DNA of 30,012 bases, taken from the UHGV virus genome UHGV-0120925. One strand, written 5' to 3'. This document shows, piece by piece, positions 176-29,957 of the stretch. Both the position numbers and the translations under genes were made by a program. The notes under the pieces were generated by a model. That model was given only the letters and a program-made list of their open reading frames with translations, searched no databases and was not told the origin of the DNA. Source of the DNA: a virus. Numbering within the stretch: position 1 is the stretch's first letter; every line of letters starts with the position of its first letter.

Positions 176-724
176 TCAGCTAGCTGGAAACTTTTTATAC
201 AGAGTTGAGAGCCCTACTCCATACGTTTTTGATACGCTTTGTCGTGATTCACCGGTTGCCATCCGCTCCCCCATTTCCCGCCATTGCTCATCCGTGAACT
301 TAGGCCTGCGACCACCAACTCGCCATTTTGCCCTGGCTACGGCCAGCCCTGCTAAGGTACGTTCGCTATTAAGATCAGATTCATATTGTGCTGCGGAAAG
401 GATGTTACGAAAGTTATAGCGGCCGCTGGCTGTTTTGAGATCCACGCCATCGGTAATACTGCGGAAGTTGATACCCTTTTCCTGTAACTGCTGGAACATC
501 AACAGCGCATGCAGAACGTTGCGGCCTATCCTGTCCAGCTTCCAGACCACCAGTTCATCCCCCGGCTGCATAGTGGTGATCAGCCGCTTCAGTACCGGAC
601 GATTAGATTTTCTCCCGCTTGCATGCTCTTCAAAAATGTGATCACATCCTGATAACTCAAGGGCAGAGCGCTGAAGTTCAGTATCCTGATGGTTTGTAGA
701 TACTCGGGCATAGCCGTAAATCAT
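176..724 (-). CDS. Serine recombinase, DNA invertase of the Hin/Gin/Cin/Pin family
   Basis: Translation from ATG 724 reads MIYGYARVSTNHQD...LVVWKLDRIGR...ERTLAGLAVARA...GVGLSTLYKKFPAS, matching the N-terminal catalytic serine region and C-terminal HTH of Hin/Pin. RBS AGGAGA upstream. The longer track ORF from 769 is an upstream extension. Confidence 0.92.
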   Translation of the reverse strand: MIYGYARVSTNHQDTELQRSALELSGCDHIFEEHASGRKSNRPVLKRLITTMQPGDELVVWKLDRIGRNVLHALLMFQQLQEKGINFRSITDGVDLKTASGRYNFRNILSAAQYESDLNSERTLAGLAVARAKWRVGGRRPKFTDEQWREMGERMATGESRQSVSKTYGVGLSTLYKKFPAS

Positions 725-779
725 GGGATTTCTCCTGTTATGAAAACAGGAGAAACGGCGAAGCATCACCAGATTTTTG

Positions 780-1586
780 ATGGTTATAAAAAAGGTCGGT
801 TTGGGAAGTGCAGCTATTCTTGATTCTGGGGCAGGACTGAATCAGGTGCTTACATCAACGAATGATGGCACTAAAAGTTTTGGGTTAGGAGCAACGTATC
901 CATCTGTCAGCACTAATGGCCAAGTGGCTACAGATTCAACGGGGTTTTACAGACAAAATAATACAACGGGCTCCAATTTCTTTGGGCATTGGGGGGCTGG
1001 GGTTGGGATTATGTATAGCTCCCCAACTAAATTTAATATTTTCGTCAGGCAAGATGGCAAAATTTATTTCAATAAAGTTTCATCTGGATCAGAAGACTGG
1101 AGAGCTATAGCCAAGACAACACTTAACACGACTGTCGATAGCAATGGTTTCCTTAAAACGGCCTCACCCGTCGTTAAGATTTTCAGCAGCGGTAGATGTG
1201 AAACTAATGAAGAATCGGAAGGTTGTACTGTAACTCGCATGAAAACTGGAGAGTATCTGATCGAGGGCTGCATGGGAATGAACTCAGATGCTGCCTGGGG
1301 AGGTGTTGATGGTGGGTTTGTTATCCCTAAAGATCGCAATGGGCAGGCATTAATATGGCTTGACTACGAGGTAAATGCCGACGGGTCAGTGCTCGTGAAA
1401 ACATTCCACCGGGAATACCCGACAGCACCGATATTTGCGAGGAACTCACGGGAAGGTTTAGTAGATGGTGAACCGGCCGATATTCCGGCCGATCAGTTTG
1501 TCAGTGTCCGGGTAGAGATGCCGCAAAACAGTATCTGGAATCAGCGTGTGGCTATGGATGAAGTTCCTGATTTATCCGCTGATTAA
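780..1586 (+). CDS. Alternative tail-fibre C-terminal cassette, silent in this orientation
   Basis: No RBS before ATG 780. Begins VIKKVGLGS, paralleling ARKNLGLGD in the expressed fibre; C-terminus FVSVRVEMPQNSIWNQR parallels SWIDVRLDMPDDSAFNQR. Converges on and overlaps the expressed cassette by 35 bp. Confidence 0.7.
   Translation: MVIKKVGLGSAAILDSGAGLNQVLTSTNDGTKSFGLGATYPSVSTNGQVATDSTGFYRQNNTTGSNFFGHWGAGVGIMYSSPTKFNIFVRQDGKIYFNKVSSGSEDWRAIAKTTLNTTVDSNGFLKTASPVVKIFSSGRCETNEESEGCTVTRMKTGEYLIEGCMGMNSDAAWGGVDGGFVIPKDRNGQALIWLDYEVNADGSVLVKTFHREYPTAPIFARNSREGLVDGEPADIPADQFVSVRVEMPQNSIWNQRVAMDEVPDLSAD
784..809. repeat. Inversion crossover site 1 (hix/gix-like), adjacent to the invertase gene
   Basis: Core AAAAAGG-TC-GGTTTGGGA is an imperfect inverted copy of the site at 2342..2367 (15 of 18 core positions identical). 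Lies at the first codons of the silent cassette. Confidence 0.6.
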
Positions 1587-2829
1587 AGGCAGAATCATCT
1601 GGCATATCCAGGCGAACATCGATCCAACTGTTCACCGGCACGTCCATCGGTTCCCCTTTCGTTTTGACGATCTCCACGCCATCGCTCAGCATGTATTTCT
1701 GTTTAAACAAGCGGATAGTCAGTCCGCAGCTTTCAGTCTGCTCCGCTTCAACAACACCCATCTCGCCCATGCCGCCAGGGTCCATTGGCGGCAGTATCTG
1801 CCATCCCTCAGAAGCCAGGCCTGCCGAACCGGCGAGCACGTAAACACCGACGTCGAGACGAAAAAGAGTTATTCCCTCCGCCTCAGAGTTCGCCGTTCCA
1901 CAGCCACACCAGGAGAAACCATCCTCTGCAACATCAGCGCGTTCCGTTTCTTCCCGGCTTTTGACAATACGGGCCACTGGTGATGCTGCTTTAAGCGTAC
2001 CATCGGAGGATTTTGTTGTATTAGCAGTTGTATATAATTCTGCTGCAGCCCAGGCGTTAGGGTTCGTAGAGTGTCGACATCGGATGATAGCTCTTGGTGA
2101 CTCGGCGTATGCGTTCAAAATAAACTGACCGCCGACTGCCCCGCCACCTTTAATATTTAATCCGACCTGCCACTGACCCGGGAATACTCCTCCGCCGGAA
2201 GAATTCCAGTAACCGAAACCGGTTGTTTCATTGCCTCCCAGCGGAACCACTGTACTCGCACCATTAAGCGTAATACCCAGCCCGAAAGCACCAACTCCCA
2301 TCACATCATTGCTGCCTGCACCTACACTCCTGGTCGCACTGTCTCCTAAACCGAGGTTTTTGCGAGCGTCTTCTGCCTTCGTTGCCCCGGTCCCGCCGTC
2401 AGCGATTGCAAGCGCACCATTGCTCCCTTTCTGCGCAAGTTTACCGATGCCTGGGATGGTTACGGCGGTGCCGTTGATGGTAACTGTGATGCTTTGGTTT
2501 GCTGAGGTGGTGGCGAACGTCTCCCACGCGCCAATATTCTCGTCATACTCCTTGATAAGCTGCGACATGGCCTGCGCCAGCCCATCAACCGAGATATTGT
2601 CTGATACCAGAATGCCGTACTTCTGGCCGCTCAGCGCCGGAGAAGCTGCAGGCGTTACCGTCATTGACGTGGCGCTATTCACGGATGAAATCTGGAACAT
2701 CTGAACCGGGTTAGACATGACAATAATCGTCTGGCCAGCGCGAACCTGGCTGGCCGGTGCAGTCCAGTTTGTACCGGAGCCGGTTGCGGTATTTCCGTTA
2801 ATAGAGATAGTTCCGGTGCTATAAATCAT
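1552..2829 (-). CDS. Side tail-fibre protein: constant N-terminal part (2355..2829) fused to the currently expressed variable cassette
   Basis: RBS TAGGAG before ATG 2829. GGTGATKAEDARKNLGLG motif is typical of phage tail fibres. Crossover site falls in codons KNLGLG. Confidence 0.85.
   Translation of the reverse strand: MIYSTGTISINGNTATGSGTNWTAPASQVRAGQTIIVMSNPVQMFQISSVNSATSMTVTPAASPALSGQKYGILVSDNISVDGLAQAMSQLIKEYDENIGAWETFATTSANQSITVTINGTAVTIPGIGKLAQKGSNGALAIADGGTGATKAEDARKNLGLGDSATRSVGAGSNDVMGVGAFGLGITLNGASTVVPLGGNETTGFGYWNSSGGGVFPGQWQVGLNIKGGGAVGGQFILNAYAESPRAIIRCRHSTNPNAWAAAELYTTANTTKSSDGTLKAASPVARIVKSREETERADVAEDGFSWCGCGTANSEAEGITLFRLDVGVYVLAGSAGLASEGWQILPPMDPGGMGEMGVVEAEQTESCGLTIRLFKQKYMLSDGVEIVKTKGEPMDVPVNSWIDVRLDMPDDSAFNQRINQELHP
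2342..2367. repeat. Inversion crossover site 2 (hix/gix-like) inside the tail-fibre gene
   Basis: TCTCCTAAACC-GA-GGTTTTTGCGAG has a palindromic core AAACC-GA-GGTTT resembling gix/hix sites. Inverted relative to site 1. Confidence 0.65.
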
Positions 2830-2909
2830 AACAACTCCTAAATTTAGACAACATGAAGCCCGGAGAGGTATATAACCCTCACCAGAAATAATTTCTGAAT
2901 TGGTTTTTA

Positions 2910-3209
2910 ATACATGTTGGGCAACGCCAGTGTTGGCATAGCTATAGTTGTATCAAATGCCATTGACCACCCACCCAAATAATAATTGCCGACTACTTTA
3001 TTCCTTTCTGCTCTGACATTCCCACCTGTCATTACAATTCCTTTATACCTAATATTTCCGTAACCACCAACGTGTCGACAGTTAGCCCCGGTATAAACAA
3101 TCTGGCAAAATTCATCACCAATATTCAGGTTCGCATTGGCGATATTTATTGTCCCATCAAAAATGAATGGCTTCGTGCAAGTAAGAAGACGTTTGCGTTG
3201 ACGATTGGT
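2910..3209 (-). pseudogene. Start-less open frame of 100 codons in AT-rich DNA; possible decayed gene remnant between J and the tail fibre
   Basis: Hand translation of the minus strand is stop-free from 3209 to 2910 (...PFIFDGTINIANANLNIGDEF...GNYYLGGWSMAFDTT...), with the first ATG only at codon 60. Confidence 0.2.
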
Positions 3210-3334
3210 TTATTCAATCCATCAACTAAAATACCATGTAAACGAATTGCCATAACATTTCCAACTTTATTTTACTTACTCAACACAACAAGTATATTAA
3301 AATTGAACCTTGTCAACAACACAAAGGAGTCCCA

Positions 3335-3565
3335 ATGAAACTCGCTCTAATTATGCTGCCATTATGTCTGTCCCTCACTGCATGTGGTAGTGGCCTGAAT
3401 ACCGGTAAACCGAATTCCGGCGTTATCCCAAAACCCTTGGATTGGGATAACGGTTCTTTAATTTATGATACCGAAAAGCTTCCAATGACTGGGCAATGGT
3501 GCCATGAGATTGATCATGAATACCGACGAATTGGTTCACCTTCAAACTGTGTAGCTAACTACTAA
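3335..3565 (+). CDS. Small secreted lipoprotein (moron), predicted outer-membrane localised
   Basis: MKLALIMLPLCLSLTAC has a signal peptide and lipobox L-T-A-C, with Gly at +2. RBS AAGGAG, AT-rich upstream region, opposite strand to the flanking tail genes, terminator immediately downstream. Confidence 0.75.
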   Translation: MKLALIMLPLCLSLTACGSGLNTGKPNSGVIPKPLDWDNGSLIYDTEKLPMTGQWCHEIDHEYRRIGSPSNCVANY

Positions 3566-3571
3566 AAGAAA

Positions 3572-3598
3572 CCCCCCGCGCTAAGCGTGGTTGTTTTT
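3572..3598. terminator. Rho-independent terminator hairpin shared by the lipoprotein gene (plus) and J (minus)
   Basis: CCGCGC-TAA-GCGTGG stem (one G-U pair) followed by TTGTTTTT on the plus strand; the complement gives a U-rich tail after the J stop. Confidence 0.55.
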
Positions 3599-6500
3599 AT
3601 CCTGAGAATGAACCAGAACCGCGCGACACAATGACGGTCGGTGAATTTATATAAGCCCCCATACTATTTTGAGCGGATACCTTAATTTTAACTGTAACGG
3701 CACTACTGGTTACAGGTGATGAGTGCATTACAAGACGCTCGTTGCCGTCTATAGAAAGTTTTTTTTCTGAACCGTCAATGTTTATCGTGCAGCCACCAAA
3801 ACCTTTAACGTTTGCCATAACGCAGATATGTCTTCTATGTGCTGCACTTGATGTGTCATTGTATGTAATTGTTTTTTCGAGTACGCCATCATTTAACCTG
3901 CTAACGTCAGATCCTGTGTACATATTCGCAACGTCTCCCACAAAACTGGTAGCTTCCACAGTACCCGTGAATTTACCTCTTGTTGCTTGTATCTCACCAG
4001 TAAAGCTACCGCCACTAGCATATACTACACCTCTGACGGTCACATTGTTGAATTCAGCATCTCCAGCTTTATTCAACTTCCAACCAGCAGAACCAGCTGC
4101 ATAGTTGTTGGACTGGATATAGTTGCCGATTTTGGCGTTCTCAATGGTGCCGTCCTGGATGAAGCTGGCCCGGATGAATGTCTGCCCGTTCTGGATCACG
4201 AACGGCAAAGCTACGCCGTTACCGGCAGCTGTCGTGACTGCGAAGCGGTCAGCCAGGAAGATGACCTGTGACTGCATGCCGGACGGCGTATTCTCCACGC
4301 CGATCCCCATCCCTGCGGCGTAATACTGACCATTGCTGGAGACACCAACCTTGATGCTGTACATCGCCTTCAGATCACCGTTAACGTTCGCTATGGCCTC
4401 AGCGTTGGTGGTGATCGCAGAAGTATGTCCATTTACGGTCGCCGTGATGCTGTTTACCTGCGTGGCCATAGCCTGCTGGTAATCCGAAAACGTCTGGTTC
4501 AGGCTGTTGATGGAAGCCTTATTGCCGTTCACGTCAGTCTGCAAACTCAGCAGCGAACGCGCCGTTGCCTCCTTCTCGTTGACGATCACCTCATCAATGC
4601 GGTCCAGCTGCGCGCTGTTACCGGCGACGGATGCAGACAGCGTTTTGCGCGCCGCCACCTGCGCCAGGTTGCCCTGAATAATCGCGATGGCAGAGTTCTT
4701 CACTCCTCCCGTCATACCGTCCACAGACACGCTGATGTTATCGATGCGCTGGCCCAGCGCGGTATCAGCCGTCGCCACTGTCTGCTCAAGCTTGCTCAGA
4801 GAAGAAGACACATCTCCGACCGTGCTCGACAGGTTTGTAACGCTGGTCTGAACCTTCCCGATATCCTGGGCGTTTTTGGCGATATCTTTCGCTTGCTGCT
4901 CCAGCTCGTCGGCATGGTTTTTGATTTCGTCAGCCATGCCAGCAATTTTTTCATTGCTGTCCACTGCGCTCTCAATCAGATCTTTAAACGTATCGGAGTC
5001 TTTAATTTCCTCCAGAATCACATCTGTGATATCGGAAACATCGATGCTGGCCTGTCCTCGCACCCATTCTGTGTACCCTGATTCGTTGCCGCTGCGGTCC
5101 ACCAGCTGCGCGCGGTACCAGAAAATCTGCCCAGCCTTTAATCCCATCTGCTGATATTTACGCTGTGGGTATGGCACATCGGCCAGCAATATCGCATCAC
5201 CATCAGTACCGGTCAGGCTGTACTGAATTTCCGTCTTCAGCGTGTCGTCGGTATTCGCCGGGAATCCCCAGTTCAGCTCGATGCCGAAAACCACATTTTC
5301 AGAAGCGATGAAGCCAACCGGTTTCGGCGGATTGCCCACTTTACCCGTAAGATTTACTTCTGATGATGTCGCCCATACTGATGAAACGTCGCTGGCGTTC
5401 ACCGCCCTGACACGGACCAGATAGCGACCCGAGTAGATACCCTGCACTTCAAAGCCGAGAGAAGACGTTCGGGGCACACTAATCCAGTTGCCGCTGTCAC
5501 GCCGCCATTCCGCCTCGTACGCAACTGCACCCTGAACAGAATCCCAGGCAACGCGCATAGTGGTAATCGCAATGTTCTGGTTAACCGTAGAGTAACTGTC
5601 TACGACAATATTTCCTGGGGGAGCCTGAACCCCCGGTGGAATGACACTGACTGGCCGCTCGTCCAGTCTTGCGCCGGTATCAACAGCGGAATAGATATCA
5701 GGGTTGTAAGTCGTCCCGGTGACCTCGAAAGTACCGTCGTTGTTGTCCCGCGTTCCCGTAACACGGAAAAGCGCTATAAACAGATCGTCAGAGTCCACAC
5801 CCCAGTTACATTCAGCCTCCGGCGTTTCGCTGTAGGGTGTGGTGACAGTGACTGTGTTTCCGTTAACGGCCTGGACGGTTCTGGCCTGAGCTGTGCCTGA
5901 CGGAAGATTCAAAAACAGCCTGTTACCGGCTTTCACATCAGCAGCGCGATCGAGGGTTATGTTGCGGCCGTTAACCGCACTCACCCTGCCGCCGATAGTT
6001 CTTCCGGCCAGCTCGTTAGCAGCCACGCCGATCACCTCACCAACAGGGGGGACGTCCATGCCTGTGCTGAAGGTCACCACCTCGCCGATACCGTTGGTAA
6101 GCAGCGCCCAGCGCCCCCGCCGGTTTGCCTCTGACTGCCTGGTGCAGCCGATCGCAGTCATTTCGAGCTGACGATAATCGAAACGCATGGCCAGATCGCT
6201 ATCGTAAACAGGCTCAGGCGTATCTTTGTAGTGGTTGGCAGGGTCTGACCAGTTCACCAGCGCGGCAGTGTTTCGGGTGGTTTCACTCGGGTCCGCAAAG
6301 GTAAATTTACCCTCAACTACGCTGGCGTGGTTATAGATATGCCACACATCGCGGGGCATATCAGCCAGGACATACATCTTATTGTCACCCCAGTACGTCA
6401 TGCCGCGAAATATACCCGCCAGATCACGAAGTACGGTCCAGGCGTCATTACGGTCCTGGATATAAACGTTGCAACGAAAACGAGGCTCCGTCCCGCTGCC

Positions 6501-7493
6501 GCCCTTGCCGTCTGGTACCAGTTGATCGCAATACTGGGCGATGCGATAAAGTTCCCATTTGTCTATCTGAGTCGCATCGATTCTTTGACCCAGCCCGAAG
6601 CGCTCGTTCAGAATGATGTCGTAATAAATCCAGGCAGGGTTATCCGTCCACGCCCATTTAAATACGCCCTCCCATGTACCAGAATAAGTGCGGGTTTCGG
6701 GATCATAAGTATCAGGTACACGGATGATTCGCCCTTTCGGATTACACACAACCTGAGGAATGCCATTAGGGAACTGCTTTGCGTCAAACTCTACATACAG
6801 CAGCGCTGTGTTAACGTAGCGAAGTTTGGCGTCAATAATTTCAGTAACGGCCACAACGCGCATGGTGTCGACGATATTCACGCTCGTGGAATCCGGTGTG
6901 ATTCTGCGAACCCGCAACTGCCATCCAGTCGAGGCTTTCGGAAGATTGACGCGGTGACTGCGCTCATAAAGCGACGTGGTTTTGTCATCAACAGCACCGT
7001 TAACCACCGTTTCATACGGCCCGCCATCGACCGACAGATCGATAGCATACTCAACGCGGGTGCCGACTTTATCGCCGTTGTTTTTCTGGAGTAAAAGAGT
7101 TGGCCATCCCAGGCGAATTCGCAGCGCAGAGAGCTGCGTGTTGGATACCGCGCGCACGTACGGCACAGCCTGTTTCAGCTCATATGAAACCTGAAGTTCG
7201 TTTTCAATGCCCGGAAAGCCCTGAATGTAATCCTGGTCCTGAGTACCGGAACGGAACTCGTATTTTACATTATTGAAATTGTAACTTCCGTCGGCGTTCT
7301 GGAGAGGCGTGTATGAAGATGAGTCACCAAGGAAAATATTTTTACCATCAAGCCCACCGGCGAACTCCCCCTCCCCAAGAGCAATAAGCACTTTTGCCCT
7401 GGCAATGGACTGAATGCTGTCCGGTGCCTCAACAGGCGTTCGGGTCTGATTGCTGCCACCTTTGCCGCGGCCTTTGATGATTGTCGTCGTCAT
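3597..7493 (-). CDS. J: Central tail fibre / host specificity protein J
   Basis: 1298 aa. Strong similarity to lambda J in the region ...NTALLYVEFDAKQF...YSGTWEGVFKWAW...DKWELYRIAQYCDQLVPDG.... Position after I matches lambda order. Confidence 0.93.
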   Translation of the reverse strand: MTTTIIKGRGKGGSNQTRTPVEAPDSIQSIARAKVLIALGEGEFAGGLDGKNIFLGDSSSYTPLQNADGSYNFNNVKYEFRSGTQDQDYIQGFPGIENELQVSYELKQAVPYVRAVSNTQLSALRIRLGWPTLLLQKNNGDKVGTRVEYAIDLSVDGGPYETVVNGAVDDKTTSLYERSHRVNLPKASTGWQLRVRRITPDSTSVNIVDTMRVVAVTEIIDAKLRYVNTALLYVEFDAKQFPNGIPQVVCNPKGRIIRVPDTYDPETRTYSGTWEGVFKWAWTDNPAWIYYDIILNERFGLGQRIDATQIDKWELYRIAQYCDQLVPDGKGGSGTEPRFRCNVYIQDRNDAWTVLRDLAGIFRGMTYWGDNKMYVLADMPRDVWHIYNHASVVEGKFTFADPSETTRNTAALVNWSDPANHYKDTPEPVYDSDLAMRFDYRQLEMTAIGCTRQSEANRRGRWALLTNGIGEVVTFSTGMDVPPVGEVIGVAANELAGRTIGGRVSAVNGRNITLDRAADVKAGNRLFLNLPSGTAQARTVQAVNGNTVTVTTPYSETPEAECNWGVDSDDLFIALFRVTGTRDNNDGTFEVTGTTYNPDIYSAVDTGARLDERPVSVIPPGVQAPPGNIVVDSYSTVNQNIAITTMRVAWDSVQGAVAYEAEWRRDSGNWISVPRTSSLGFEVQGIYSGRYLVRVRAVNASDVSSVWATSSEVNLTGKVGNPPKPVGFIASENVVFGIELNWGFPANTDDTLKTEIQYSLTGTDGDAILLADVPYPQRKYQQMGLKAGQIFWYRAQLVDRSGNESGYTEWVRGQASIDVSDITDVILEEIKDSDTFKDLIESAVDSNEKIAGMADEIKNHADELEQQAKDIAKNAQDIGKVQTSVTNLSSTVGDVSSSLSKLEQTVATADTALGQRIDNISVSVDGMTGGVKNSAIAIIQGNLAQVAARKTLSASVAGNSAQLDRIDEVIVNEKEATARSLLSLQTDVNGNKASINSLNQTFSDYQQAMATQVNSITATVNGHTSAITTNAEAIANVNGDLKAMYSIKVGVSSNGQYYAAGMGIGVENTPSGMQSQVIFLADRFAVTTAAGNGVALPFVIQNGQTFIRASFIQDGTIENAKIGNYIQSNNYAAGSAGWKLNKAGDAEFNNVTVRGVVYASGGSFTGEIQATRGKFTGTVEATSFVGDVANMYTGSDVSRLNDGVLEKTITYNDTSSAAHRRHICVMANVKGFGGCTINIDGSEKKLSIDGNERLVMHSSPVTSSAVTVKIKVSAQNSMGAYINSPTVIVSRGSGSFSG

Positions 7494-21412: not shown

Positions 21413-21909
21413 CAGTCCCTCGAATTAAGAAATTGACTTAACAGATCATCATCGTCTGGTTTGTCTTTACTGACCTTAGACCTGCTGGAAGGCGTCATAC
21501 CAAACTCCGCTAACATCGCGCGAAGTCGCTTCCAGGCATCAGCTTTCATCATGGCTGCCGGATGCGGCTTGATCATGCGTATTTCACGCTCTTTCCCTTC
21601 ATCAGCATCATCATCGCTGTATACCGCATAGGTATAACCTTCCCGATCCAGCGTTTCACAATGATGGCGGTATTCCGTATATGCCTCTACCAGCAACTCC
21701 AGAGCCCTGGCATCCAGCTGAGATATGACGCCAATGGCATCAAGTTCTTCGGCCATCCGCTTAAACCAGTACTTCCCCTGCTTGTCGAAATGCTTGGGAA
21801 CTGGGGGGACCCCTTTAGGTGGCTGCGGCTCGTTTTTGTTGATTGGTCGTTTGGAAGGGTTACCCCTCACCAAACGCAGATGGGTAGGGGTTTTCGGCGG
21901 TCCTGACAT
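21412..21909 (-). CDS. Terminase small subunit (P27 family)
   Basis: RBS AGGAG before ATG 21909. 165 aa with a basic N-terminus and acidic C-terminus. First gene of the minus-strand late operon. Confidence 0.82.
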   Translation of the reverse strand: MSGPPKTPTHLRLVRGNPSKRPINKNEPQPPKGVPPVPKHFDKQGKYWFKRMAEELDAIGVISQLDARALELLVEAYTEYRHHCETLDREGYTYAVYSDDDADEGKEREIRMIKPHPAAMMKADAWKRLRAMLAEFGMTPSSRSKVSKDKPDDDDLLSQFLNSRD

Positions 21910-22443
21910 AATCGAAAACTCCTATTAATCATCGGCTGTGGGACCCCAAAAAAAGTTTTCTAACCTGCGGCGATGTGAAGAAAGGCTAGGCGGCGGTCCT
22001 TTTGGCGCCCGGTTACAGGGATTTGACCTCCCCCTCCCCTCCACATCCGTTGATGGTAATCATTATCATTTGAAGCGTTCACGCCCTGTTTTCGAGCGGT
22101 GGCAAGGCCAGCACAGGCTTTCAAGGTTCGAATCATCATCGGTACACGTAAACGTGCTGTATCACCGGGTGCGATCCGGTCGGTGAGAGAGTATCCCCGC
22201 GCGAGAGCGAGAACGGCGTGAGAACGGGCAACACTGGCAGGGAGTTGGCGCTGACCAATACAGGGAATGTTATGGGATGTGGTGAAGGGTTCATGGACGG
22301 GAATATGTCGCACGTAAAGCGGCGAGGCCCGAGGAGCTATTGCCGAAGATAAGTAGGCCGAATCGGGTCGAAATGGGTCTCCCACCTACCACAGCACCAA
22401 AGCATTTCTCCCGCATCAGCGGGTAACTAAGTGGAGAGTAAGT
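21910..22443. promoter_or_regulatory. Non-coding divergent control region between the late (minus) and early-left (plus) operons; likely holds promoters and the packaging site
   Basis: About 530 bp with no RBS-supported ORF. GC-rich, with short direct repeats (GAGAACGG twice at 22207..22226). Exact promoter and cos/pac positions cannot be fixed from sequence alone. Confidence 0.4.
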
Positions 22444-22632
22444 ATGCACAAGTGTCAATTCTGTGGGTACTTTCTGGCATCTGAAGAGATGCAGAGAATA
22501 TCTGTAAACATGGTTGGCAGGCCTTACAACATCTGCATTCCATGCTCAGAAAAGTACAAAAAGAAAGGCCTGTGGGATTCGGCAAAAAACGATATCGACT
22601 GGAAAGCACTTCCATGCGTCGATGAGACATAA
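22444..22632 (+). CDS. Small zinc-ribbon protein (CxxC...CxxC), unknown function
   Basis: RBS GGAGAG. 62 aa with Cys pairs at residues 4/7 and 31/34. First gene of the plus-strand early operon. Confidence 0.6.
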   Translation: MHKCQFCGYFLASEEMQRISVNMVGRPYNICIPCSEKYKKKGLWDSAKNDIDWKALPCVDET

Positions 22633-22665
22633 CCGCATCAGCGGGTAACGACAGAGGGTAAGGGG

Positions 22666-22962
22666 ATGATCGACGACATCAAGCGCATCGACTCAATGAT
22701 AAATGCGCTTCGCAATATGAAACAGGACATCAAGCGTCAGCAGAAACTAAGTGAAATAAACAGTTTAGACCTGTCGCCGAAGCAAGCTCAAAAGCGCAAT
22801 GCCGATGCTGACTGGATTGCGATGGAACAGATTAAGCGTCGGCATGAGCTGCACGCTCTGTCTGTTGAGCTTGGGTTCGCTGAGCGCCGGGAAAGTTATG
22901 CTCCATTTGAATTAACTGACGGGTGGCACCGATTCGACCACAAGCCGCGCGAACCTCAATAG
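22666..22962 (+). CDS. Hypothetical protein (98 aa)
   Basis: RBS AAGGGG. Preceded at fixed spacing by the repeated 17-nt motif. Terminator follows. Confidence 0.55.
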   Translation: MIDDIKRIDSMINALRNMKQDIKRQQKLSEINSLDLSPKQAQKRNADADWIAMEQIKRRHELHALSVELGFAERRESYAPFELTDGWHRFDHKPREPQ

Positions 22963-22984
22963 CCGCCTAACCAGCGGCTTTTTC
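22961..22984 (+). terminator. Rho-independent terminator within the early operon
   Basis: AGCCGC-CTAACCA-GCGGCT followed by TTTTT, overlapping the stop codon of the 98-aa ORF. Confidence 0.55.
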
Positions 22985-23118
22985 ATACCTGGAGTCATTT
23001 ACGAGTGGCTCAAGTTATGACAACCGGCGGCCATCCACCGCCCATTGAAACACTGAATAAATGCGTTGAAGTCTTGTATTAACCGTTCCGTTCGCCGCGA
23101 TAAGGCCAAGAGGAAATC

Positions 23119-23325
23119 ATGGTAAACCAGCACTACGGTACACAGACAGTAAACCGCGGCGCAGTTCAGCCGGGGATGCTCGTCAAACACAAGGATTCAA
23201 CCTGGACGGCATCAGCTAATGCTCGTGGTCGTTTGTATCTGCATCGCGGCGTTGAGATGACTTACACCAGGGATTTGCTGGTTGAAGTTTATCTGAACGG
23301 TCTGGGGAATGGCCTCAGCCATTAA
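23119..23325 (+). CDS. Hypothetical protein (68 aa)
   Basis: RBS AGAGGA before the ATG. No recognisable family. Confidence 0.45.
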   Translation: MVNQHYGTQTVNRGAVQPGMLVKHKDSTWTASANARGRLYLHRGVEMTYTRDLLVEVYLNGLGNGLSH

Positions 23326-23358
23326 CGGAGAGTTGCCAAAACACTTTAAGGACAGGTG

Positions 23359-23517
23359 ATGAAAAAAGAATGTGGTTATTGCCACAAGCCTGTTGAAGAA
23401 GGCGCAGAAGTAAAGAGCACCTTGCTCTATCTCAACGGTTCGCAACTGGCACAGAAAGAAAAAGAATATTGCTCTAAGCAATGCGCTGAATACGACCAGA
23501 TGGCGCACGAAAGTTAA
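23359..23517 (+). CDS. Small zinc-ribbon protein (52 aa), found by hand because it is below the ORF-track cutoff
   Basis: RBS AAGGACAGG before ATG 23359. MKKECGYCHKP...YCSKQCAEY has CxxC and CxxxC pairs. Confidence 0.45.
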   Translation: MKKECGYCHKPVEEGAEVKSTLLYLNGSQLAQKEKEYCSKQCAEYDQMAHES

Positions 23518-23602
23518 ATAGCAGTCCTGAAATATGAAATGAAAAATTCGCCATTAATTTGGCGCGGCTTCTTACACCCTTAATTTAACAACTGGAGATT
23601 TT

Positions 23603-23890: not shown

Positions 23891-24030
23891 GCGAAAGCCC
23901 ACCGAAGTGGGCCCGCCATGTCCGGCCTCACCGACCAAAGTTACACCGGAAACAACATTAAAACCAAAGTTAACCCAATGGGCGCTATCAATGGTCCGGG
24001 GATTCTAACACCCAAAAATGAGGATCTCAC

Positions 24031-26937
24031 ATGGAATTCTTTAATGTGGTTAAAGCCACTCAGAAATCCGGAAAGCAAGATGCAGTGGTCTGGTTCACTG
24101 CTAAAACCGAGGCTCGCGCCAATCTGATGCTGGATGTTGCGCTGGAAGATGCAGGTATCGAAACAGGTCGGGGTAAGGACTACGCCAAACCGATTCGCAC
24201 TGATTTCCCAGTTGTCGACGGCCTGCCGAAAGAAGGTGAAGTTGATTTTACCTGGTGTGATCGCTACGAGCTTCATGACGATGGGCGCACCTGGCTGCCA
24301 AAAGTCACAGCTGAAAACTCTGACGAGAAAACGGCTCAGACCGTTGATAGTCACATAACTACTGAGTCAACGCTGTCAGAAACCGCTGGCATCACGCTGG
24401 ACGAACACGACGACGACTCAACCCTCTACCCGGTAGTGCAGATGCCGTTTCGTAAGCAACTGCTTTCCCAGTTCACCGCCGACGAACTGCGCCACCACGT
24501 AACCCATGAAGAGTACGAAGCTATCGGCGCGCTGGAGATGGACACTGATAACAGTTACGTCCAGAACTTGCTGTTAGCTGCTGAGAACTGCCCGGAAGTG
24601 AAGGGTTACGACACCAAAGACCTGTGGCGTTACACCGATGCCATTCGCAAAGTGTTCAGCCAGGACAAGCGTCACGAACTCGCGCTGGTACTCCGTTTCA
24701 CCAGAATGTGGGCGGCGACTGATTACATTGACCGTGGCATCCTGGCGCGTGAATGGGCCGCCGGTAATCGCATCAGTAGTGTGCAGCGTACTGATTCCGG
24801 CACTAATGCCGACGGCGGTTACGTCACTGACCGTGGACCTGAGGCACACCACACACTGGACACTCTCGATTTAGAGATTGCGTGTGCCCTTCTGCCTATG
24901 GACTTCAACCACTTCGAGATCCCGGGCAGCATTCTTCGTCGCGCTAAAGAAATCGTGACCAAAAAAGAAGAACCATGGAAATCATGGAGCAACATCCTGC
25001 GCAATCAGCCAGGCGTTCTGGGTGTTAACCGCACGGCTATTTTTAACCTGGTACGTATCGCACCGGAAAATATTCATTTAACTCCTGTCGCTCACCTGGA
25101 ATTTGTTAACCAGACCATGACAGCCGCGTTCAATTCCGCGGTCGAGTTATTGCCGTTGCATGAAGCTGAACCCGCAGCACAGGAAATTCCCCAACCTGAA
25201 GGTAAGGAGTCTCCGCGCAAATCCTTCTGCACTCACGAAGAGAACCTGCAACGCGTGCGTGAAGAAGGAGCACGCCGCCGCGCAGAGGAAGCGGCAGCAC
25301 AACCGCAGAAAGTCGAACAAGAACTGGTTAAAAATGTCGGCAACGGAATATTCGACGTTACGGCTTTGCTGCAGAACTCAGCAACTCATGGCACGAAAAA
25401 GGCTACGGAGACCACCAGCAATGTGCAGGTTCAAGAAACTGTCAGTGATGAAAAACAAGCTGGTGATGAAGTACAGCCAGGCGAAAGCAGTCTGGAGTCT
25501 GGTGAAGAGTCAGATACCAGCCAGAAGGACGATGTAGACCAGAATACGGATTCTGTCGCCAAAAATAGCGATTCTGTAAGCCAAACCGAACCAGTTGCAA
25601 CACAAACCGAGCCAGAAGCGCAATCTGACGAACCAGCTGTTGTTTATCCCGCTTATTTCGAGCCAGGCCGCTATGAAGGGCTGCCAAACGAGGTTTACCA
25701 CGCCGCCAACGGCATCAGCTCAACCCAGGTGAAAGATGCGCGCGTTTCGCTGATGTACTTCAATGCGCGCCACGTAGAGAAAACCATCGTCAAAGAGCGC
25801 TCAGCGGTGCTGGACATGGGCAACTTGGTGCATGCGCTGGCGTTGCAGCCTGAACTACTGGACGCAGAATTCAGCGTTGAACCGGTGATCCCTGAAGGCG
25901 CATTCACAACGGCCGCGACCCTGCGCGCCTTTATCGATGAGCACAATGCCAGCCTGCCGGCGCTGCTGTCTGCCGACGACATCAAGGTGTTACTGGAAGA
26001 GTACAACGCCACCCTGCCGCCGCAGGTTCCGCTTGGCGCTAACCTGGAAGAAACGGCACAGAACTATATGGCGCTGCCAGCTGACTTCCAGCGTATTGAT
26101 GGTGACCAGAAGCAGACGGCGACGGCAATGAAGGCATGCATTAAAGAGTACAACGCCACCCTGCCGCCGCCGGTTAAAACCAGCGGCAGCCGTGACGCGC
26201 TGCTGGAGCAGTTGGCAATCATCAACCCTGACCTTGTGGCTCAGGAAGCACAGAAACCGGCACCACTGAAAGTGTCCGGTACCAAAGCAGACATGATCCA
26301 GGCCGTGAAGGCAGTCAAACCAGATGCCGTATTTGCCGACGAACTGCTGGATGCCTGGCGCGATAACCCGGAAGGAAAAGTGCTGGTCACCCGCCAGCAG
26401 CTGAGCACCGCGCTGAATATTCAAAAAGCGCTTCTGGCACACCCGACCGCCGGCATGCTGCTGACCCACCCTAGCCGAGCCGTTGAGGTGAGCTACTTTG
26501 GTTTTGACGAGGAGACGGGCTTGGAAGTTCGTGTGCGCCCTGACCTTGAGATCGACCTGGATGGCGTGCGTATAGGTGCAGACCTGAAAACCATCAGCAT
26601 GTGGAATGTTAAGCAGGAAAGCCTGCGCGCCAGGCTACACCGGGAAATTATTGAACGTGATTATCACCTGAGCGCGGCTATGTACTGCGAAACCGCAGCG
26701 CTGGATCAGTTCTTCTGGATTTTCGTCAACAAAGACGAGAACTACCACTGGATCGCCATCATCGAGGCATCCGCTGAACTACTGGAGCTGGGTATGCTCG
26801 AGTACCGCAAAGCGATGCGCAATATCGCAACCGGATTCGACACAGGTGAATGGCCAGCGCCAATCACTGCTGACTACACCGACGAACTGAACGACTTCGA
26901 CCTGCGCCGCCTTGAAGCGCTGCGTACTCAGGCATAA
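24031..26937 (+). CDS. recE: RecE-like exonuclease VIII (C-terminal PD-(D/E)XK nuclease domain) with long N-terminal extension
   Basis: 968 aa immediately upstream of recT. C-terminal region ...YFEPGRYEGLPNEVYHAANGISSTQ...DLEIDLDGVRIGADLKT... is consistent with a RecE/YqaJ-type nuclease. Central acidic low-complexity stretch. Confidence 0.8.
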   Translation: MEFFNVVKATQKSGKQDAVVWFTAKTEARANLMLDVALEDAGIETGRGKDYAKPIRTDFPVVDGLPKEGEVDFTWCDRYELHDDGRTWLPKVTAENSDEKTAQTVDSHITTESTLSETAGITLDEHDDDSTLYPVVQMPFRKQLLSQFTADELRHHVTHEEYEAIGALEMDTDNSYVQNLLLAAENCPEVKGYDTKDLWRYTDAIRKVFSQDKRHELALVLRFTRMWAATDYIDRGILAREWAAGNRISSVQRTDSGTNADGGYVTDRGPEAHHTLDTLDLEIACALLPMDFNHFEIPGSILRRAKEIVTKKEEPWKSWSNILRNQPGVLGVNRTAIFNLVRIAPENIHLTPVAHLEFVNQTMTAAFNSAVELLPLHEAEPAAQEIPQPEGKESPRKSFCTHEENLQRVREEGARRRAEEAAAQPQKVEQELVKNVGNGIFDVTALLQNSATHGTKKATETTSNVQVQETVSDEKQAGDEVQPGESSLESGEESDTSQKDDVDQNTDSVAKNSDSVSQTEPVATQTEPEAQSDEPAVVYPAYFEPGRYEGLPNEVYHAANGISSTQVKDARVSLMYFNARHVEKTIVKERSAVLDMGNLVHALALQPELLDAEFSVEPVIPEGAFTTAATLRAFIDEHNASLPALLSADDIKVLLEEYNATLPPQVPLGANLEETAQNYMALPADFQRIDGDQKQTATAMKACIKEYNATLPPPVKTSGSRDALLEQLAIINPDLVAQEAQKPAPLKVSGTKADMIQAVKAVKPDAVFADELLDAWRDNPEGKVLVTRQQLSTALNIQKALLAHPTAGMLLTHPSRAVEVSYFGFDEETGLEVRVRPDLEIDLDGVRIGADLKTISMWNVKQESLRARLHREIIERDYHLSAAMYCETAALDQFFWIFVNKDENYHWIAIIEASAELLELGMLEYRKAMRNIATGFDTGEWPAPITADYTDELNDFDLRRLEALRTQA

Positions 26938-26942
26938 GGGGA

Positions 26943-28061
26943 ATGATGATGGAAAACACGAATATCGTAACCGCTGAACAGCAGACTCCAAACACGATCT
27001 CAGCCAGCAATGCCATTTTCAACGTGCAGGCTTTAACCCAGCTTCAGTCTGTCGCCGGGTTGATGGCACAGGCAGCCGTAACGGTGCCTGAGCACCTCCG
27101 CGGCAATCCGGCAGACTGCATGGCCATCATCATGCAGGCGATGCAGTGGGGTATGAACCCTTACGCCGTGGCGCAAAAGACGCACCTGGTTAACGGTGTC
27201 CTGGGATACGAAGCGCAACTGGTTAATGCGGTGATCTCCAGCTCAAACGCCATCGTTGGCCGCTTTCACTATGAGTACGAGGGCGACTGGTCGAAATGTG
27301 CCAGCAGCCGCGAGATAACCGTTAAAAAGCCTGCGAAAGGTGGCGGGACGTACGACAAGAAAGAAATGGTACGCGGTTGGGAAAGTGCTGATGAACAAGG
27401 ACTGTCGGTACGGGTAGGTGCCGTTATTCGCGGTGAAAGTGATATCACCTGGGGAGAGCCTGTTTTACTCTCCAGCGTAATCACACGTAATTCTCCACTT
27501 TGGGTATCAAACCCGAAACAGCAGATCGCTTATCTGGCACTCAAATACTGGGCGCGCCTATATTGCCCTGCAGTTGTTCTTGGTGTGTACACCCCTGATG
27601 AGATTGAACAGCGCACAGAAAAAGAGATCAACCCAACGCCGCAACGCGTTAGCCTGGCTGATATCTCAGGTGACACCGTCACAACCACGCAAAGCGCACA
27701 GGAATCGTCGGTAAATGTCGACTCTCTTGCCGATGATTTCCGCGAACGCATCGAATCTGCTCAGGACGTGGATAGCACCAAATCGCTGCGTGCCGACATT
27801 GAAACGGCGAAAGCTACGCTGGGATCCGCACTATTCACCGAGCTGAAAAACAAAGCCGTAAAGCGTTATTACCTAGTGGATGCACGCAACAAGGTTGAGG
27901 AGGCTATTAAATCCCTGCCCCAGCCCGACGAGCCGCATGCAGCCGAACGGTTCGCTGAAGCCGAGCGCATGCTTACATCTTCAAAGCGTCACTTAGGCGA
28001 TGAACTGCACGATCAATTCAGCATCACCCTGGCGGATATGAAACCGGAATACGTGGCCTGA
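26943..28061 (+). CDS. recT: RecT single-strand annealing recombinase
   Basis: RBS AAGGGG. Region ...CMAIIMQAMQWGMNPYAVAQKTHLVNGVLGYEAQ... matches the RecT family. Paired with the upstream RecE-like gene. Confidence 0.9.
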   Translation: MMMENTNIVTAEQQTPNTISASNAIFNVQALTQLQSVAGLMAQAAVTVPEHLRGNPADCMAIIMQAMQWGMNPYAVAQKTHLVNGVLGYEAQLVNAVISSSNAIVGRFHYEYEGDWSKCASSREITVKKPAKGGGTYDKKEMVRGWESADEQGLSVRVGAVIRGESDITWGEPVLLSSVITRNSPLWVSNPKQQIAYLALKYWARLYCPAVVLGVYTPDEIEQRTEKEINPTPQRVSLADISGDTVTTTQSAQESSVNVDSLADDFRERIESAQDVDSTKSLRADIETAKATLGSALFTELKNKAVKRYYLVDARNKVEEAIKSLPQPDEPHAAERFAEAERMLTSSKRHLGDELHDQFSITLADMKPEYVA

Positions 28062-28099
28062 CGAGACCGGGAGGGGTAACCCTCCCTCAAGGAGATTAT

Positions 28100-28342: not shown

Positions 28343-28383
28343 AAAAGATTTTGAATGGCCCGAACGGGCAACTGGAGAGAGCT

Positions 28384-28581
28384 ATGGATGATATTTTGGT
28401 AACGTCAGACCTGACCAGTCGCTACAAAATTTCACGCAAAACCCTTTGGTCATGGCAAAGTGCAGACACAATGCCTCGGGGCTTCGTATGCCCGTTCCCA
28501 CCCCCTGACTGGCCCGGCAACCCTAACCGCTGGCGCTCTGAGTCAATCAAAGAGTGGGAGGATAAAAAGAAGATAAATTAA
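28384..28581 (+). CDS. xis: Excisionase / AlpA-like DNA-binding protein
   Basis: Start at ATG 28384 with RBS GGAGAG; the track ORF from 28339 begins with TTG. Pattern ...[12 protein letters not shown]...PRGFVCPFP... fits the AlpA/Xis winged-helix family. Converges on the int 3' end. Confidence 0.6.
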
Positions 28582-29771
28582 CTGAAGGGCTCTCCGATGA
28601 TCTCTTCAAGATGGCTCTGCCAAACGCGGAGCCAGTGTTTCTGATCATCGATATAGTCATGAAGGTTGTAATGCGCCATAACCCCCACCATCTGATGCCC
28701 GAGCAGCTTTTCAATTACGTGCGGCGGGCAACCTAACTCAGAGAGATTTGTGGCTATCGTCCGCCTCATATCATGAAGCGACCACTCTGCCATACCTGTT
28801 CCATTCCAAATAGAACGGGCGTAATTGGATGCCACAGGTGAATGAACGGGCGAATCTTTGATCCCGCCATCAATTTTACGTTGTGAAGTCACCAGGTGAT
28901 TGGTGTTTATTTTCTTGAGGTGATTTCTGACCAGGTTAACGGCGGCGTCTGAGAGTCCCCTTCTAATATGTACCCGAGTTTTATAACTGCCCGCAGGCAC
29001 GACCCACTCATTATCATCCAATCGAAACCATGATCTCTCACTAAGTCGAATCTCAGCCGTACGGCATCCGGTAAGCATAATAAATTTCACCAGGAAAACG
29101 GACTCTATCGACATATGGCTTTTCAACCACTGATAGATTTTGCGCAGATCGTCATCGTCCATCCTGCGAGTTCTCTTTTTAGGCTTTTGCCCGACATCAG
29201 ATGGCAGTAATCCCTCGAGTGGGTTTGAGGCGATCACACTTCTGTTAACGCAGAACCTAAACGCCCGTTTGCACAGCGAAAGCATGTAATGAGCCATCAC
29301 CCTGCTTTCTATAGAATCGAAGACGTTGATCCAGTGCATTTTCGCTGTGTTATCGACTTTGACATTCTTCATCGGTTCGGCGATATGTTTCTCAAACACC
29401 TGGCGATAGTAATCGACTTTAACTAGCCCGTTAGCGATACAGTGCCTTTCAATCCAGTAATTGAACGCTTCGGCAACGGACATCGCTTCCTGTCGGGTCT
29501 GCTTATCCAGCTTCACCTGCTCTCGCGGATCCAGTCCCTCAGTTAACCAGTTTCTGAATTGTTGGCGACGCTCTCTTGCCTGGGTGATACTCATTGCAGG
29601 ATAATCACCAACATTGAGTTTTACCGCTTTACCGGCCCAGCGATACCGATAGAAAAATGATATTTTTCCGGCCTGGCTGATTCTGGCGTTGAGCCCGTGC
29701 GAATCAGAAATAATCTCGATATCATCTCTTTTCTTGCCGAGCGCCTTCCTGAGCTTTGTGTCGGTGATCAT
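28578..29771 (-). CDS. int: Tyrosine site-specific integrase
   Basis: C-terminal catalytic region with R...HDMRRT...H...Y residues ([30 protein letters not shown]). Start set at ATG 29771 ([10 protein letters not shown]), typical of P4-type integrase N-termini; upstream in-frame codons run through the GTACACA repeats and are probably untranslated. Confidence 0.88.
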
Positions 29772-29776
29772 TGAAT

Positions 29777-29817
29777 GGGTACACATTTTTGTTTTTGGGT
29801 ACACAAAAGTGTACACA
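29777..29817. repeat. Three direct repeats of G(G/T)GTACACA just upstream of the integrase start; candidate arm-type or operator sites
   Basis: GGGTACACA at 29777..29785 and 29797..29805, GTGTACACA at 29809..29817 (contains the palindrome GTGTACAC). A single GTACACA also sits in the left-end hairpin loop at 136..142. Confidence 0.4.
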
Positions 29818-29957
29818 AAGTTGCCCACTCAAAGCTACACGCAATGTAACACTAGTTCGCAGAGTGTTATGGTTTACATCCTTGAAAGCCTGCTGGATAA
29901 GGGTTTAGCGTAACAGAACGTTTTTACGCGGAATTGTTCGTAATATGCCAAATGACA

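What the first reader, a model, noticed from the sequence alone, without database searches (positions are those of the whole stretch)
3210..3600. Outer-membrane lipoprotein moron between J and the tail fibre
A 76-aa lipoprotein gene with its own AT-rich upstream region, strong RBS and terminator is inserted antisense to the tail genes. Position and architecture resemble lipoprotein morons near tail-fibre genes (Cor-like receptor-blocking or Bor-like proteins), so it is a candidate superinfection-exclusion or host-fitness factor. No sequence similarity to a named family is asserted.
Basis: partly seen in the sequence, partly recalled or inferred. Interest (0 to 1): 0.6.

Follow-up and report, generated by a model that had tools for sequence, protein, structure and literature searches.

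The report
LamB-linked phage exclusion lipoprotein gene
This small prophage gene encodes a membrane-anchored lipoprotein from a family in which one member is already known to stop other phages that enter through the maltose porin LamB, so it is a real but fairly ordinary member of a recently described kind of phage-exclusion gene.

Summary
Window 3335..3565 (+) is a 76-aa ORF with a signal peptide and lipobox (LTAC, Cys17). It has an AT-rich upstream region with a promoter-like site, an AAGGAG ribosome-binding site and a terminator hairpin shared with the convergent J gene. It lies antisense between J and the tail-fibre genes.

It evolves under purifying selection (dN/dS 0.06-0.2 in the mature part). 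It matches phrog_12984 "lipoprotein" (E 2e-50) but has no Pfam, NCBIfam or PADLOC match.

Homologues sit in the same position in:
- all four LamB-dependent BASEL Seuratvirus phages;
- phage CSP1, which uses LamB;
- phage 9g;
- the four LamB-dependent mEpimmI temperate phages (54-55% identity).

The mEp010 homologue, Lpp010, was cloned in a published study and excluded mEp010, mEp044, mEp554 and lambda. The last ~112 residues of the window's J belong to a receptor-binding type found only in phages known to use LamB, and are unrelated to lambda J's own tip.

The gene is therefore most likely a superinfection-exclusion lipoprotein acting on LamB. It works like Cor, Llp and Rtp45 but is not homologous to them. 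It is a new member of a known kind. The molecular mechanism is inferred, not shown.

The parts
3271..3298 (+). Promoter-like site TTTACT-16-TATATT for the lipoprotein gene
   Evidence: Consensus scan. The site is conserved in phage homologues, where the -35 reads TTGACT in CSP1C and SeppeHuegi. It lies in an 81-bp intergenic stretch of 31% G+C. Activity was not tested.
3324..3329 (+). Ribosome-binding site AAGGAG, 5 nt before the ATG
   Evidence: Read directly from the sequence. Conserved in CSP1C, SeppeHuegi and 9g.
3335..3565 (+). Lipoprotein gene, 76 aa including the signal peptide. Residues 1-16 are the signal peptide, Cys17 (codon 3383-3385) is the lipidated residue, and the mature protein is 60 aa (about 6.6 kDa, pI 5.4).
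   Evidence: ORF. phrog_12984 match at E 2e-50. Homologues in phages and prophages. Invariant C17, PNSGV, T46-E47 and G53, and near-invariant C56 and C72. dN/dS 0.06-0.2 in the mature part. Lipobox and +2 residue.
3576..3600 (.). Terminator hairpin with T-runs on both strands, between the convergent lipoprotein and J genes
   Evidence: Stem-preserving substitutions across phages. The equivalent hairpins are annotated in 9g (H1 loop) and mEp010 (T18).
3600..3935 (-). C-terminal ~112 residues of J, the presumed LamB-binding tip and functional partner of the lipoprotein
   Evidence: 85% identical to mEp044 J, 83.5% to CSP1 and mEp554, 73-76% to mEp010 and mEp013, 62-63% to 9g, HK97 and KurtStettler. 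All of these with a known receptor use LamB. No similarity to the lambda J tip.
3597..7493 (-). J-like tail tip protein, 1298 aa
   Evidence: Pfam FNIII-A_GpJ, Phage-tail_3 and Phage_Tail_Tip. 31% identical to lambda J over about 900 aa.
3195..4151 (.). Extent of the shared cassette: 5' end of a lateral-fibre gene, promoter, lipoprotein gene, terminator and the 3' end of J
   Evidence: blastn: 84% identity to CSP1C over 3195-4151, 78% to 9g over 3167-4192, 90% to SeppeHuegi over 3195-3552, and 75.5% to mEp010 over 3464-3977.
3155..3253 (-). Relic of the first 33 codons of a Queuovirinae-type lateral tail fibre gene, marking the left edge of the cassette
   Evidence: 85% aa identity to the N-terminus of the 9g fibre. 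The reading frame stops after 37 codons.

Best explanation
The gene encodes a small secreted lipoprotein. Signal peptidase II would cleave it before Cys17. Because the +2 residue is Gly, the Lol pathway would sort it to the inner leaflet of the outer membrane.

It belongs to the same family as Lpp010 of phage mEp010 and is inherited together with a J receptor-binding tip that targets the maltoporin LamB. Its most likely function is superinfection exclusion: it makes LamB unusable as a phage receptor. Cells carrying this (apparently cryptic) prophage would then resist phages that need LamB. In a lytic cycle, progeny would not be lost on infected cells or debris.

What is shown:
- gene anatomy;
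- purifying selection;
- homology to Lpp010;
- linkage to the LamB-type J tip.

What is taken from the literature:
- exclusion activity of the 54-55%-identical Lpp010;
- LamB dependence of the phages that carry the family.

What is inferred:
- that this copy is expressed and active;
- that it binds LamB directly from the periplasmic side, by analogy with Llp-FhuA and Rtp45-LptD;
- that two conserved cysteines (C56, C72) form a disulfide.
For: 1. Homology. phrog_12984 E 2e-50. 54-55% identity, E 1e-20, to mEp010/013/044/554. mEp010_116 is Lpp010, because residues K2, A11, Q38 and V40 match the paper's description.

2. Published function. Lpp010 expressed in W3110 excluded mEp010, mEp044, mEp554 and lambda (PMC11893012).

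3. Association with receptor.
- Among phage records the family occurs in all four LamB-dependent BASEL Seuratviruses, Bas21-24, and in CSP1, which uses LamB.
- It occurs in the four LamB-dependent mEp phages.
- It is absent from the LptD-type Bas19, Bas20 and Bas25 and from the OmpA-type mEp021 and mEp515.
- VogelGryff (LptD) carries a different 321-aa gene in the same slot.

4. The window's J tip is the LamB-associated type. It is co-transferred with the lipoprotein gene.

5. Lambda and the mEp phages have unrelated J tips (10.64898/2026.04.02.716166) and share LamB as their outer-membrane receptor. Cross-exclusion therefore points to LamB as the target.

6. Lipobox in 25 of 29 family members, with a +2 residue that is never Asp.

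7. Same placement and antisense orientation as T1 cor.
Against: - No experiment exists on this protein. Identity to the tested homologue is only 54-55%, and differences are concentrated in the N-terminal third of the mature protein.
- Lpp010 did not exclude the LamB-dependent mEp013, so exclusion is not a simple loss of LamB.
- The paper reports plating assays only: no adsorption data and no binding data.
- The AlphaFold2 model is unusable (pLDDT 54.8), so nothing structural supports LamB binding.
- In E. coli Nissle 1917, which has an intact homologue, lambda was reported still to bind LamB (PMC5987069). Either that copy is weakly expressed or the block comes after adsorption.
- The window's -35 hexamer (TTTACT) is weaker than in the lytic phages.
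- HK97 has the same J tip type but no homologue.
Confidence: 0.7

Rival explanations
1. The lipoprotein excludes phages after adsorption. LamB still binds the phage tip, but DNA ejection or passage through the periplasm is blocked, for example by plugging the LamB channel or interfering with tape-measure insertion.
For: Lambda was reported to bind LamB of Nissle 1917, which carries an intact homologue, without productive infection. Lpp010 spares mEp013 although it also depends on LamB. That fits an effect on a step that differs between phages.
Against: The three structurally or genetically understood analogues (Cor, Llp, Rtp45) all prevent receptor binding. The tight linkage is with the J tip, not with the tape measure. 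Expression of the Nissle copy is unknown, and another Nissle factor (the pr repressor) explains part of the resistance.
Confidence: 0.15
2. In this cryptic prophage the gene is a silent passenger. It is a leftover of a cassette whose real role is in lytic growth (protecting progeny from debris), and it has no effect on the present host.
For: The prophage lacks immunity, replication and lysis genes between recE and terS. The neighbouring fibre 5' end and DUF6453 gene are relics. The family is also carried by strictly virulent phages. A frameshifted variant, P0016, occurs in some E. coli.
Against: The ORF, promoter-like site, ribosome-binding site and terminator are all intact, while adjacent genes have decayed. 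The identical protein occurs in many assemblies and at two or more integration sites. dN/dS is low between prophage copies (window vs Nissle 0.08-0.10).
Confidence: 0.1
3. It is a host-fitness lipoprotein of the Bor/Iss type (serum resistance, adhesion) or a lysis-related outer-membrane spanin, unrelated to phage entry.
For: Small outer-membrane lipoproteins encoded by prophages include Bor and o-spanins (established knowledge). The architecture, with its own promoter and terminator, is moron-like.
Against: No Pfam hit at E<=10, which includes the Lambda_Bor family as far as I recall its presence in Pfam. The gene is not next to lysis genes, and it sits in the tail module of virulent phages as well. 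A family member has demonstrated exclusion activity.
Confidence: 0.04

Closest known systems
Lpp010, the type-C lipoprotein of mEpimmI phages (mEp010 gp116; Negrete-Mendez et al. 2025, PMC11893012)
   Same: Homologous (54-55% identity; shared core PNSGVIP...DTEKLP.TGQWCHE.DH..RRIGSPSNCV.NY with two cysteines). Lipobox. Placed antisense between J and the tail fibre and followed by a shared terminator. The adjacent J tip is 73-85% identical.
   Different: The signal peptide and the first ~12 mature residues differ, and the window protein lacks the AVDKEAALHN insert. The host element is a lambda-J-like, HK97-head-type cryptic prophage rather than an mEpimmI phage (J N-terminal 1000 aa only 28% identical). 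Activity of this copy is untested.
Unnamed 77-aa lipoprotein of LamB-dependent Queuovirinae (9g gp69, Seurat, CAjan, BASEL Bas21-24, CSP1_019) in the 'bona fide RBP locus' of Maffei et al. 2021
   Same: 79-91% amino-acid identity. Promoter, ribosome-binding site and terminator are conserved at the DNA level. Same position next to J.
   Different: Those phages are virulent and have modified DNA. Their lipoprotein has not been tested individually, as far as the searched literature shows. The window copy has a one-residue deletion (DWD-NGS against DRDGNGS).
Cor (T1, phi80, N15, HK022), the FhuA-directed exclusion lipoprotein
   Same: Small lipoprotein (75 aa) encoded antisense just downstream of the tail-tip/RBP genes. 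Works by disabling the phage's own outer-membrane receptor.
   Different: No homology beyond the signal peptide (hhalign aligns 21 columns only). Its target is FhuA, a TonB-dependent transporter, not LamB.
Llp of T5 (FhuA) and Rtp45 of phage Rtp (LptD), exclusion lipoproteins with solved complexes (PMC9586334; PMC12685063, PDB 9RPS)
   Same: Periplasmic, outer-membrane-anchored mini-lipoproteins of about 6 kDa with a disulfide, encoded beside the receptor-binding protein. They change extracellular loops from the periplasmic side. This is the mechanism proposed here by analogy.
   Different: No sequence similarity: a family profile searched against all PDB chains found neither. LamB is a trimeric sugar porin with no plug domain, so the structural solution must differ.
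Bor / Lom morons of lambda
   Same: Lom occupies the equivalent J-to-stf position in lambda. Bor is a small prophage lipoprotein.
   Different: Lom is a beta-barrel protein on the same strand as J. Bor is unrelated in sequence (no Pfam hit) and is located elsewhere. Neither is an exclusion factor.

Membership tests
Lpp010-type (phrog_12984) LamB-linked exclusion lipoproteins | Sequence homology to Lpp010 / phrog_12984 over the whole mature protein | tested here: met
   phrog_12984 E 2.3e-50, profile positions 1-77 of 77. tblastn 54-55% identity, E 1e-20, to mEp010/013/044/554. Alignment.
Lpp010-type (phrog_12984) LamB-linked exclusion lipoproteins | Signal peptide with a lipobox and an invariant Cys | tested here: met
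   LTAC, with Cys17 invariant in 29 of 29 sequences. The strict lipobox pattern holds in 25 of 29. Processing itself is not testable here.
Lpp010-type (phrog_12984) LamB-linked exclusion lipoproteins | Encoded antisense between J and the tail-fibre gene, convergent with J across a shared terminator | tested here: met
Lpp010-type (phrog_12984) LamB-linked exclusion lipoproteins | Adjacent J carries the LamB-associated C-terminal tip | tested here: met
   Last 112 aa are 62-85% identical to J of mEp044/554/013/010, CSP1, 9g, HK97 and KurtStettler. Their receptors are LamB.
Lpp010-type (phrog_12984) LamB-linked exclusion lipoproteins | Expression excludes LamB-dependent phages | not testable with these tools
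   Shown only for Lpp010 (PMC11893012). Needs plating and adsorption assays.
Cor (T1/phi80/N15) | Sequence homology of the mature protein | tested here: not met
   hhalign of family alignment A1 against T1 Cor aligns only the signal peptide and lipobox (21 columns). The PHROGs scan returned no other family apart from a weak hit (E 0.074) on the signal-peptide region (residues 3-36).
Cor (T1/phi80/N15) | Carried by FhuA-dependent phages | tested here: not met
   All carriers with a known receptor use LamB.
Llp (T5) and Rtp45 (Rtp) | Sequence homology to the solved exclusion lipoproteins | tested here: not met
   Profile search of A1 against 177,635 distinct PDB sequences at E<=10 returned only three chance hits, none Llp or Rtp45. 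No fold comparison was possible (pLDDT 54.8).
Bor/Iss (Lambda_Bor) | Match to the Pfam family | tested here: not met
   No Pfam family at E<=10. No NCBIfam family.
Catalogued anti-phage defence systems (PADLOC) | Match to any PADLOC model | tested here: not met
   0 families at E<=10.

The most novel reading that the evidence does not exclude
The family could be a structurally new way of disabling a plug-less trimeric porin from the periplasm. The 6.6-kDa lipoprotein would bind LamB and block a step after reversible adsorption, rather than abolishing binding. It might carry a cost for maltodextrin uptake. Its Nissle 1917 copy might be the 'unidentified prophage factor' behind that probiotic's complete resistance to lambda. 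No structure, binding data or adsorption data exist for any member, and the family is absent from Pfam, NCBIfam and PADLOC.
Probability: 0.2. Interest if true: 0.6.

Novelty: new member of a known kind. Interest (0 to 1): 0.33.

Why it matters
- Annotation. RefSeq labels this gene 'hypothetical protein' in every E. coli genome that carries it, including the probiotic and chassis strain Nissle 1917. Assigning it to a LamB-directed exclusion family gives a usable annotation.

- Phage resistance. It predicts resistance of carrier strains to LamB-dependent phages: lambda, HK97, many Seuratvirus and Dhillonvirus phages, and CSP1. This is relevant to phage therapy, phage contamination and lambda-based tools.

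- Gene exchange. A roughly 1-kb 'receptor tip plus exclusion lipoprotein' cassette has moved between temperate prophages and virulent Queuovirinae.

- Mechanism. LamB would be a third receptor class, after FhuA and LptD, for which an exclusion lipoprotein could be studied structurally.

Tried and rejected
- Pfam, NCBIfam and PADLOC scans of the protein gave no hits.
- The AlphaFold2 prediction from a 29-sequence alignment had mean pLDDT 54.8 and pTM 0.30. I judged it too poor and ran no fold searches.
- A family profile searched against all PDB sequences returned only chance hits.
- hhalign against T1 Cor matched the signal peptide only.
- An exhaustive profile search of 1.84 billion representatives found only 3 true clusters. 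It also found two long repeat proteins (4467 and 704 aa). The 704-aa one is a low-complexity repeat protein, and I treat its similarity to the 'G.L.YDTEK' stretch as spurious. The 4467-aa one was not inspected.
- No complete E. coli genome matched the window at 99% or better over the tail region, so the source strain was not identified. A metagenome contig, L011, has the same J, I and K protein lengths.
- Kim et al. 2024 on the CSP1 receptor (PMC11494877) could not be read. The LamB statement is taken second-hand from PMC13577005.
- The spanin and Bor readings were considered and rejected on context and lack of homology.
- The Rfam scan found no RNA family in 3200-3600.
Full report
**1. What is in the sequence**

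Window 3335..3565 (+) is an ATG-initiated ORF of 76 codons: MKLALIMLPLCLSLTACGSGLNTGKPNSGVIPKPLDWDNGSLIYDTEKLPMTGQWCHEIDHEYRRIGSPSNCVANY.

- The N-terminus has Lys2, a hydrophobic core and the lipobox L-T-A-C, with Cys17 as the predicted lipidated residue.
- The residue after Cys is Gly. By the established '+2 rule', a non-Asp residue there predicts Lol-dependent sorting to the outer membrane. This is inference from established knowledge.
- The 81-bp upstream spacer has 31% G+C, against 51% for the window.
- It holds a sigma-70-like site, TTTACT-16-TATATT, at 3271-3298.
- AAGGAG lies 5 nt before the ATG.
- Downstream, hairpin 3576-3590 with flanking T-runs (-11.4 kcal/mol, z = -3.3) sits between this gene's stop codon and that of the convergent J gene (3597..7493, -).
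- The other neighbours on the minus strand are gene relics at 2907-3253 and the tail fibre gene 1552..2829.

**2. It is a real gene**

- Against homologues from Nissle 1917, CSP1C, SeppeHuegi, 9g and mEp010, dN/dS for the mature part is 0.06-0.20. The signal peptide varies more freely.
- In a 29-sequence family alignment, C17, PNSGV, T46-E47 and G53 are invariant. C56 and C72 are nearly so, which suggests a disulfide.
- 25 of 29 members fit the strict lipobox pattern, and none has Asp at +2.
- The terminator stem is kept through compensatory substitutions: CCCCGCGC/GCGGGG against CCCCTC/GAGGGG.
- The promoter-like hexamers are conserved, with a better -35 (TTGACT) in the lytic phages.

**3. 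Relatives and their context**

- Pfam, NCBIfam and PADLOC give nothing.
- PHROGs gives phrog_12984 'lipoprotein' at E 2e-50.
- The family is tiny. There are 29 clusters at 90% identity, all unnamed or 'hypothetical'. There are three true clusters at 50% identity among 1.84 billion representatives.
- At the DNA level the gene and its flanks match prophages in 42-43 of 5426 complete E. coli genomes, including Nissle 1917.
- More strikingly, they match virulent Queuovirinae phages (9g, Seurat, CAjan, slur01, CSP1, BASEL isolates) at 84-92% identity.
- In 9g, SeppeHuegi, CSP1C and mEp010 the homologue lies exactly as here: antisense between J and the lateral or tail fibre gene.

**4. Link to LamB**

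tblastn over 50,697 phage records lists 54 records. About 44 are true homologues. They include:
- all four BASEL Seuratviruses whose terminal receptor was determined as LamB: Bas21 GottfriedDienst, Bas22 KurtStettler, Bas23 WildeMaa and Bas24 SeppeHuegi (S5 table of PMC8594841);
- CSP1 and CSP1C, which use LamB (PMC13577005 citing Kim et al. 2024);
- the four LamB-dependent mEpimmI phages mEp010, mEp013, mEp044 and mEp554 (PMC11893012).

The following do not appear in that list:
- the LptD-dependent Queuovirinae Bas19, Bas20 and Bas25;
- the OmpA-dependent mEp021 and mEp515.

As a control, VogelGryff (Bas25, LptD) has a shorter J and an unrelated 321-aa antisense gene in the same slot.

The last 112 residues of the window's J show these identities:

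| Phage J | Identity |
|---|---|
| mEp044 | 85% |
| mEp554, CSP1 | 83.5% |
| mEp013 | 76% |
| mEp010 | 73% |
| 9g, HK97, KurtStettler | 62-63% |

HK97 also adsorbs to LamB (PMC6832061). This tip has no detectable similarity to the LamB-binding tip of lambda J, although the rest of J is lambda-like at 31% identity. [quoted passage not shown]

**5. Function of a family member**

mEp010_116 is the Lpp010 of Negrete-Mendez et al. Its residues K2, A11, Q38 and V40 match the paper's text. Expressed from a plasmid in W3110, it excluded mEp010, mEp044, mEp554 and lambda, but not mEp013.

Lambda and the mEp phages have unrelated J tips and share LamB as their outer-membrane receptor. The simplest target is therefore LamB itself. 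This is my inference. The paper reports plating assays only.

**6. Proposed mechanism**

By analogy with Llp-FhuA and Rtp45-LptD, where about 6-kDa lipoproteins bind the periplasmic side of the receptor and rearrange extracellular loops (PMC9586334; PMC12685063), I propose the following. The mature 60-residue lipoprotein, anchored in the inner leaflet of the outer membrane, binds LamB and makes it unusable for phages.

Escape of mEp013 fits a conformational effect rather than a removal of the receptor.

None of this is shown for any member. The AlphaFold2 model is unusable (pLDDT 54.8), and no complex prediction could be run.

A post-adsorption block is a live alternative. Nissle 1917, which has an intact homologue in a defective lambdoid prophage, was reported to bind lambda via LamB yet resist infection through an unidentified prophage factor (PMC5987069).

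**7. Comparison with known families**

Functionally and architecturally this is the LamB counterpart of Cor, Llp and Rtp45. T1 cor is likewise a 75-aa antisense lipoprotein gene just past the tail-tip genes.

It is not homologous to them:
- hhalign against Cor aligns only the signal peptide;
- a family profile finds neither Llp nor Rtp45 among PDB sequences;
- there is no Bor/Pfam match.

It is a member of the Lpp010/phrog_12984 family on four tested criteria. The fifth, exclusion activity, cannot be tested here.

**8. Cassette and host element**

- DNA similarity to CSP1C runs from 3195 to 4151. That span covers the fibre-gene 5' end, promoter, lipoprotein gene, terminator and J tip.
- Similarity to mEp010 runs from 3464 to 3977, spanning the gene's 3' half and the J tip.
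- Receptor tip and exclusion gene therefore travel together. This fits the 'bona fide RBP loci' and their frequent horizontal transfer described by Maffei et al..
- Left of the cassette, the first 33 codons of a Queuovirinae-type fibre gene survive as a relic.
- The window's element has integrase, recE/recT, an HK97-type head module and lambda-type tail genes. It has no room for immunity, replication or lysis genes, so it looks cryptic. The intact lipoprotein gene next to decayed neighbours is compatible with retention for host benefit, but this is not proof.

**9. Verdict**

The gene is a new member of a known, recently characterised kind. Interest is modest. The open points are the molecular mechanism on LamB, expression from the cryptic prophage, and the possible role of the Nissle homologue.

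Noticed in passing
window 176-2829 (sites at 789-806, 873-891, 2344-2361): Invertible tail-fibre system. It comprises a Hin/Gin-type recombinase (176..769, -) and an alternative fibre C-terminal cassette (777..1586, +, Phage_tail_C_2) converging on the fibre gene 1552..2829 (-). Crossover-like inverted repeats have the AAACC-NN-GGTTT core. Related contigs show the segment in other orientations or with other cassettes (L013 vs L014).
   Followed up: partly
window 2907-3253 (-): Gene relics between the lipoprotein gene and the fibre gene. At 3253..3140, 37 codons stop after a T5 run, and the first 33 match the N-terminus of the 9g lateral fibre at 85%. An 85-aa ORF at 3164..2907 matches only positions 229-289 of the 291-position DUF6453 profile. 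RefSeq annotates it with an ATT start.
   Followed up: partly
window 21909-29828: The prophage looks cryptic. Integrase is at 28578..29828 (-), recE-like at 24031..26937 and recT at 26943..28061 (+). Only about 2 kb separates recE from the small terminase gene, so no immunity, replication, antitermination or lysis genes are present.
   Followed up: partly
window 23892-23989 (-): Rfam match to the isrB Hfq-binding sRNA family (38.2 bits, gathering score 35, E 0.0013), just upstream of recE.
   Followed up: no
L009 (E. coli Nissle 1917, NZ_CP022686.1 425500-472000), lipoprotein at L009:4770-5003: Nissle 1917 carries an intact 77-aa homologue in a defective lambdoid prophage between yecD and yecN (portal and tail-assembly T are pseudogenes). 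Bury et al. 2018 attributed Nissle's lambda resistance partly to a repressor of a defective lambdoid 'prophage 3' and postulated a further unidentified factor. This lipoprotein is a candidate, but I did not verify that this is their prophage 3.
   Followed up: partly
L010-L015; L001: The identical lipoprotein with a similar tail module occurs at two or more chromosomal sites: next to malI in ABWA45, and next to yciA/yciB-type genes in other assemblies. The J proteins are 1298 or 1304 aa and only 68% identical overall, so the cassette is shared among diverged prophages.
   Followed up: no
phage HK97 (AF069529.1 18693-19028): HK97 J has the same LamB-type tip (62% identity), but no homologue of the lipoprotein was found in HK97 by tblastn at E<=10. 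The tip can therefore exist without this exclusion gene.
   Followed up: no
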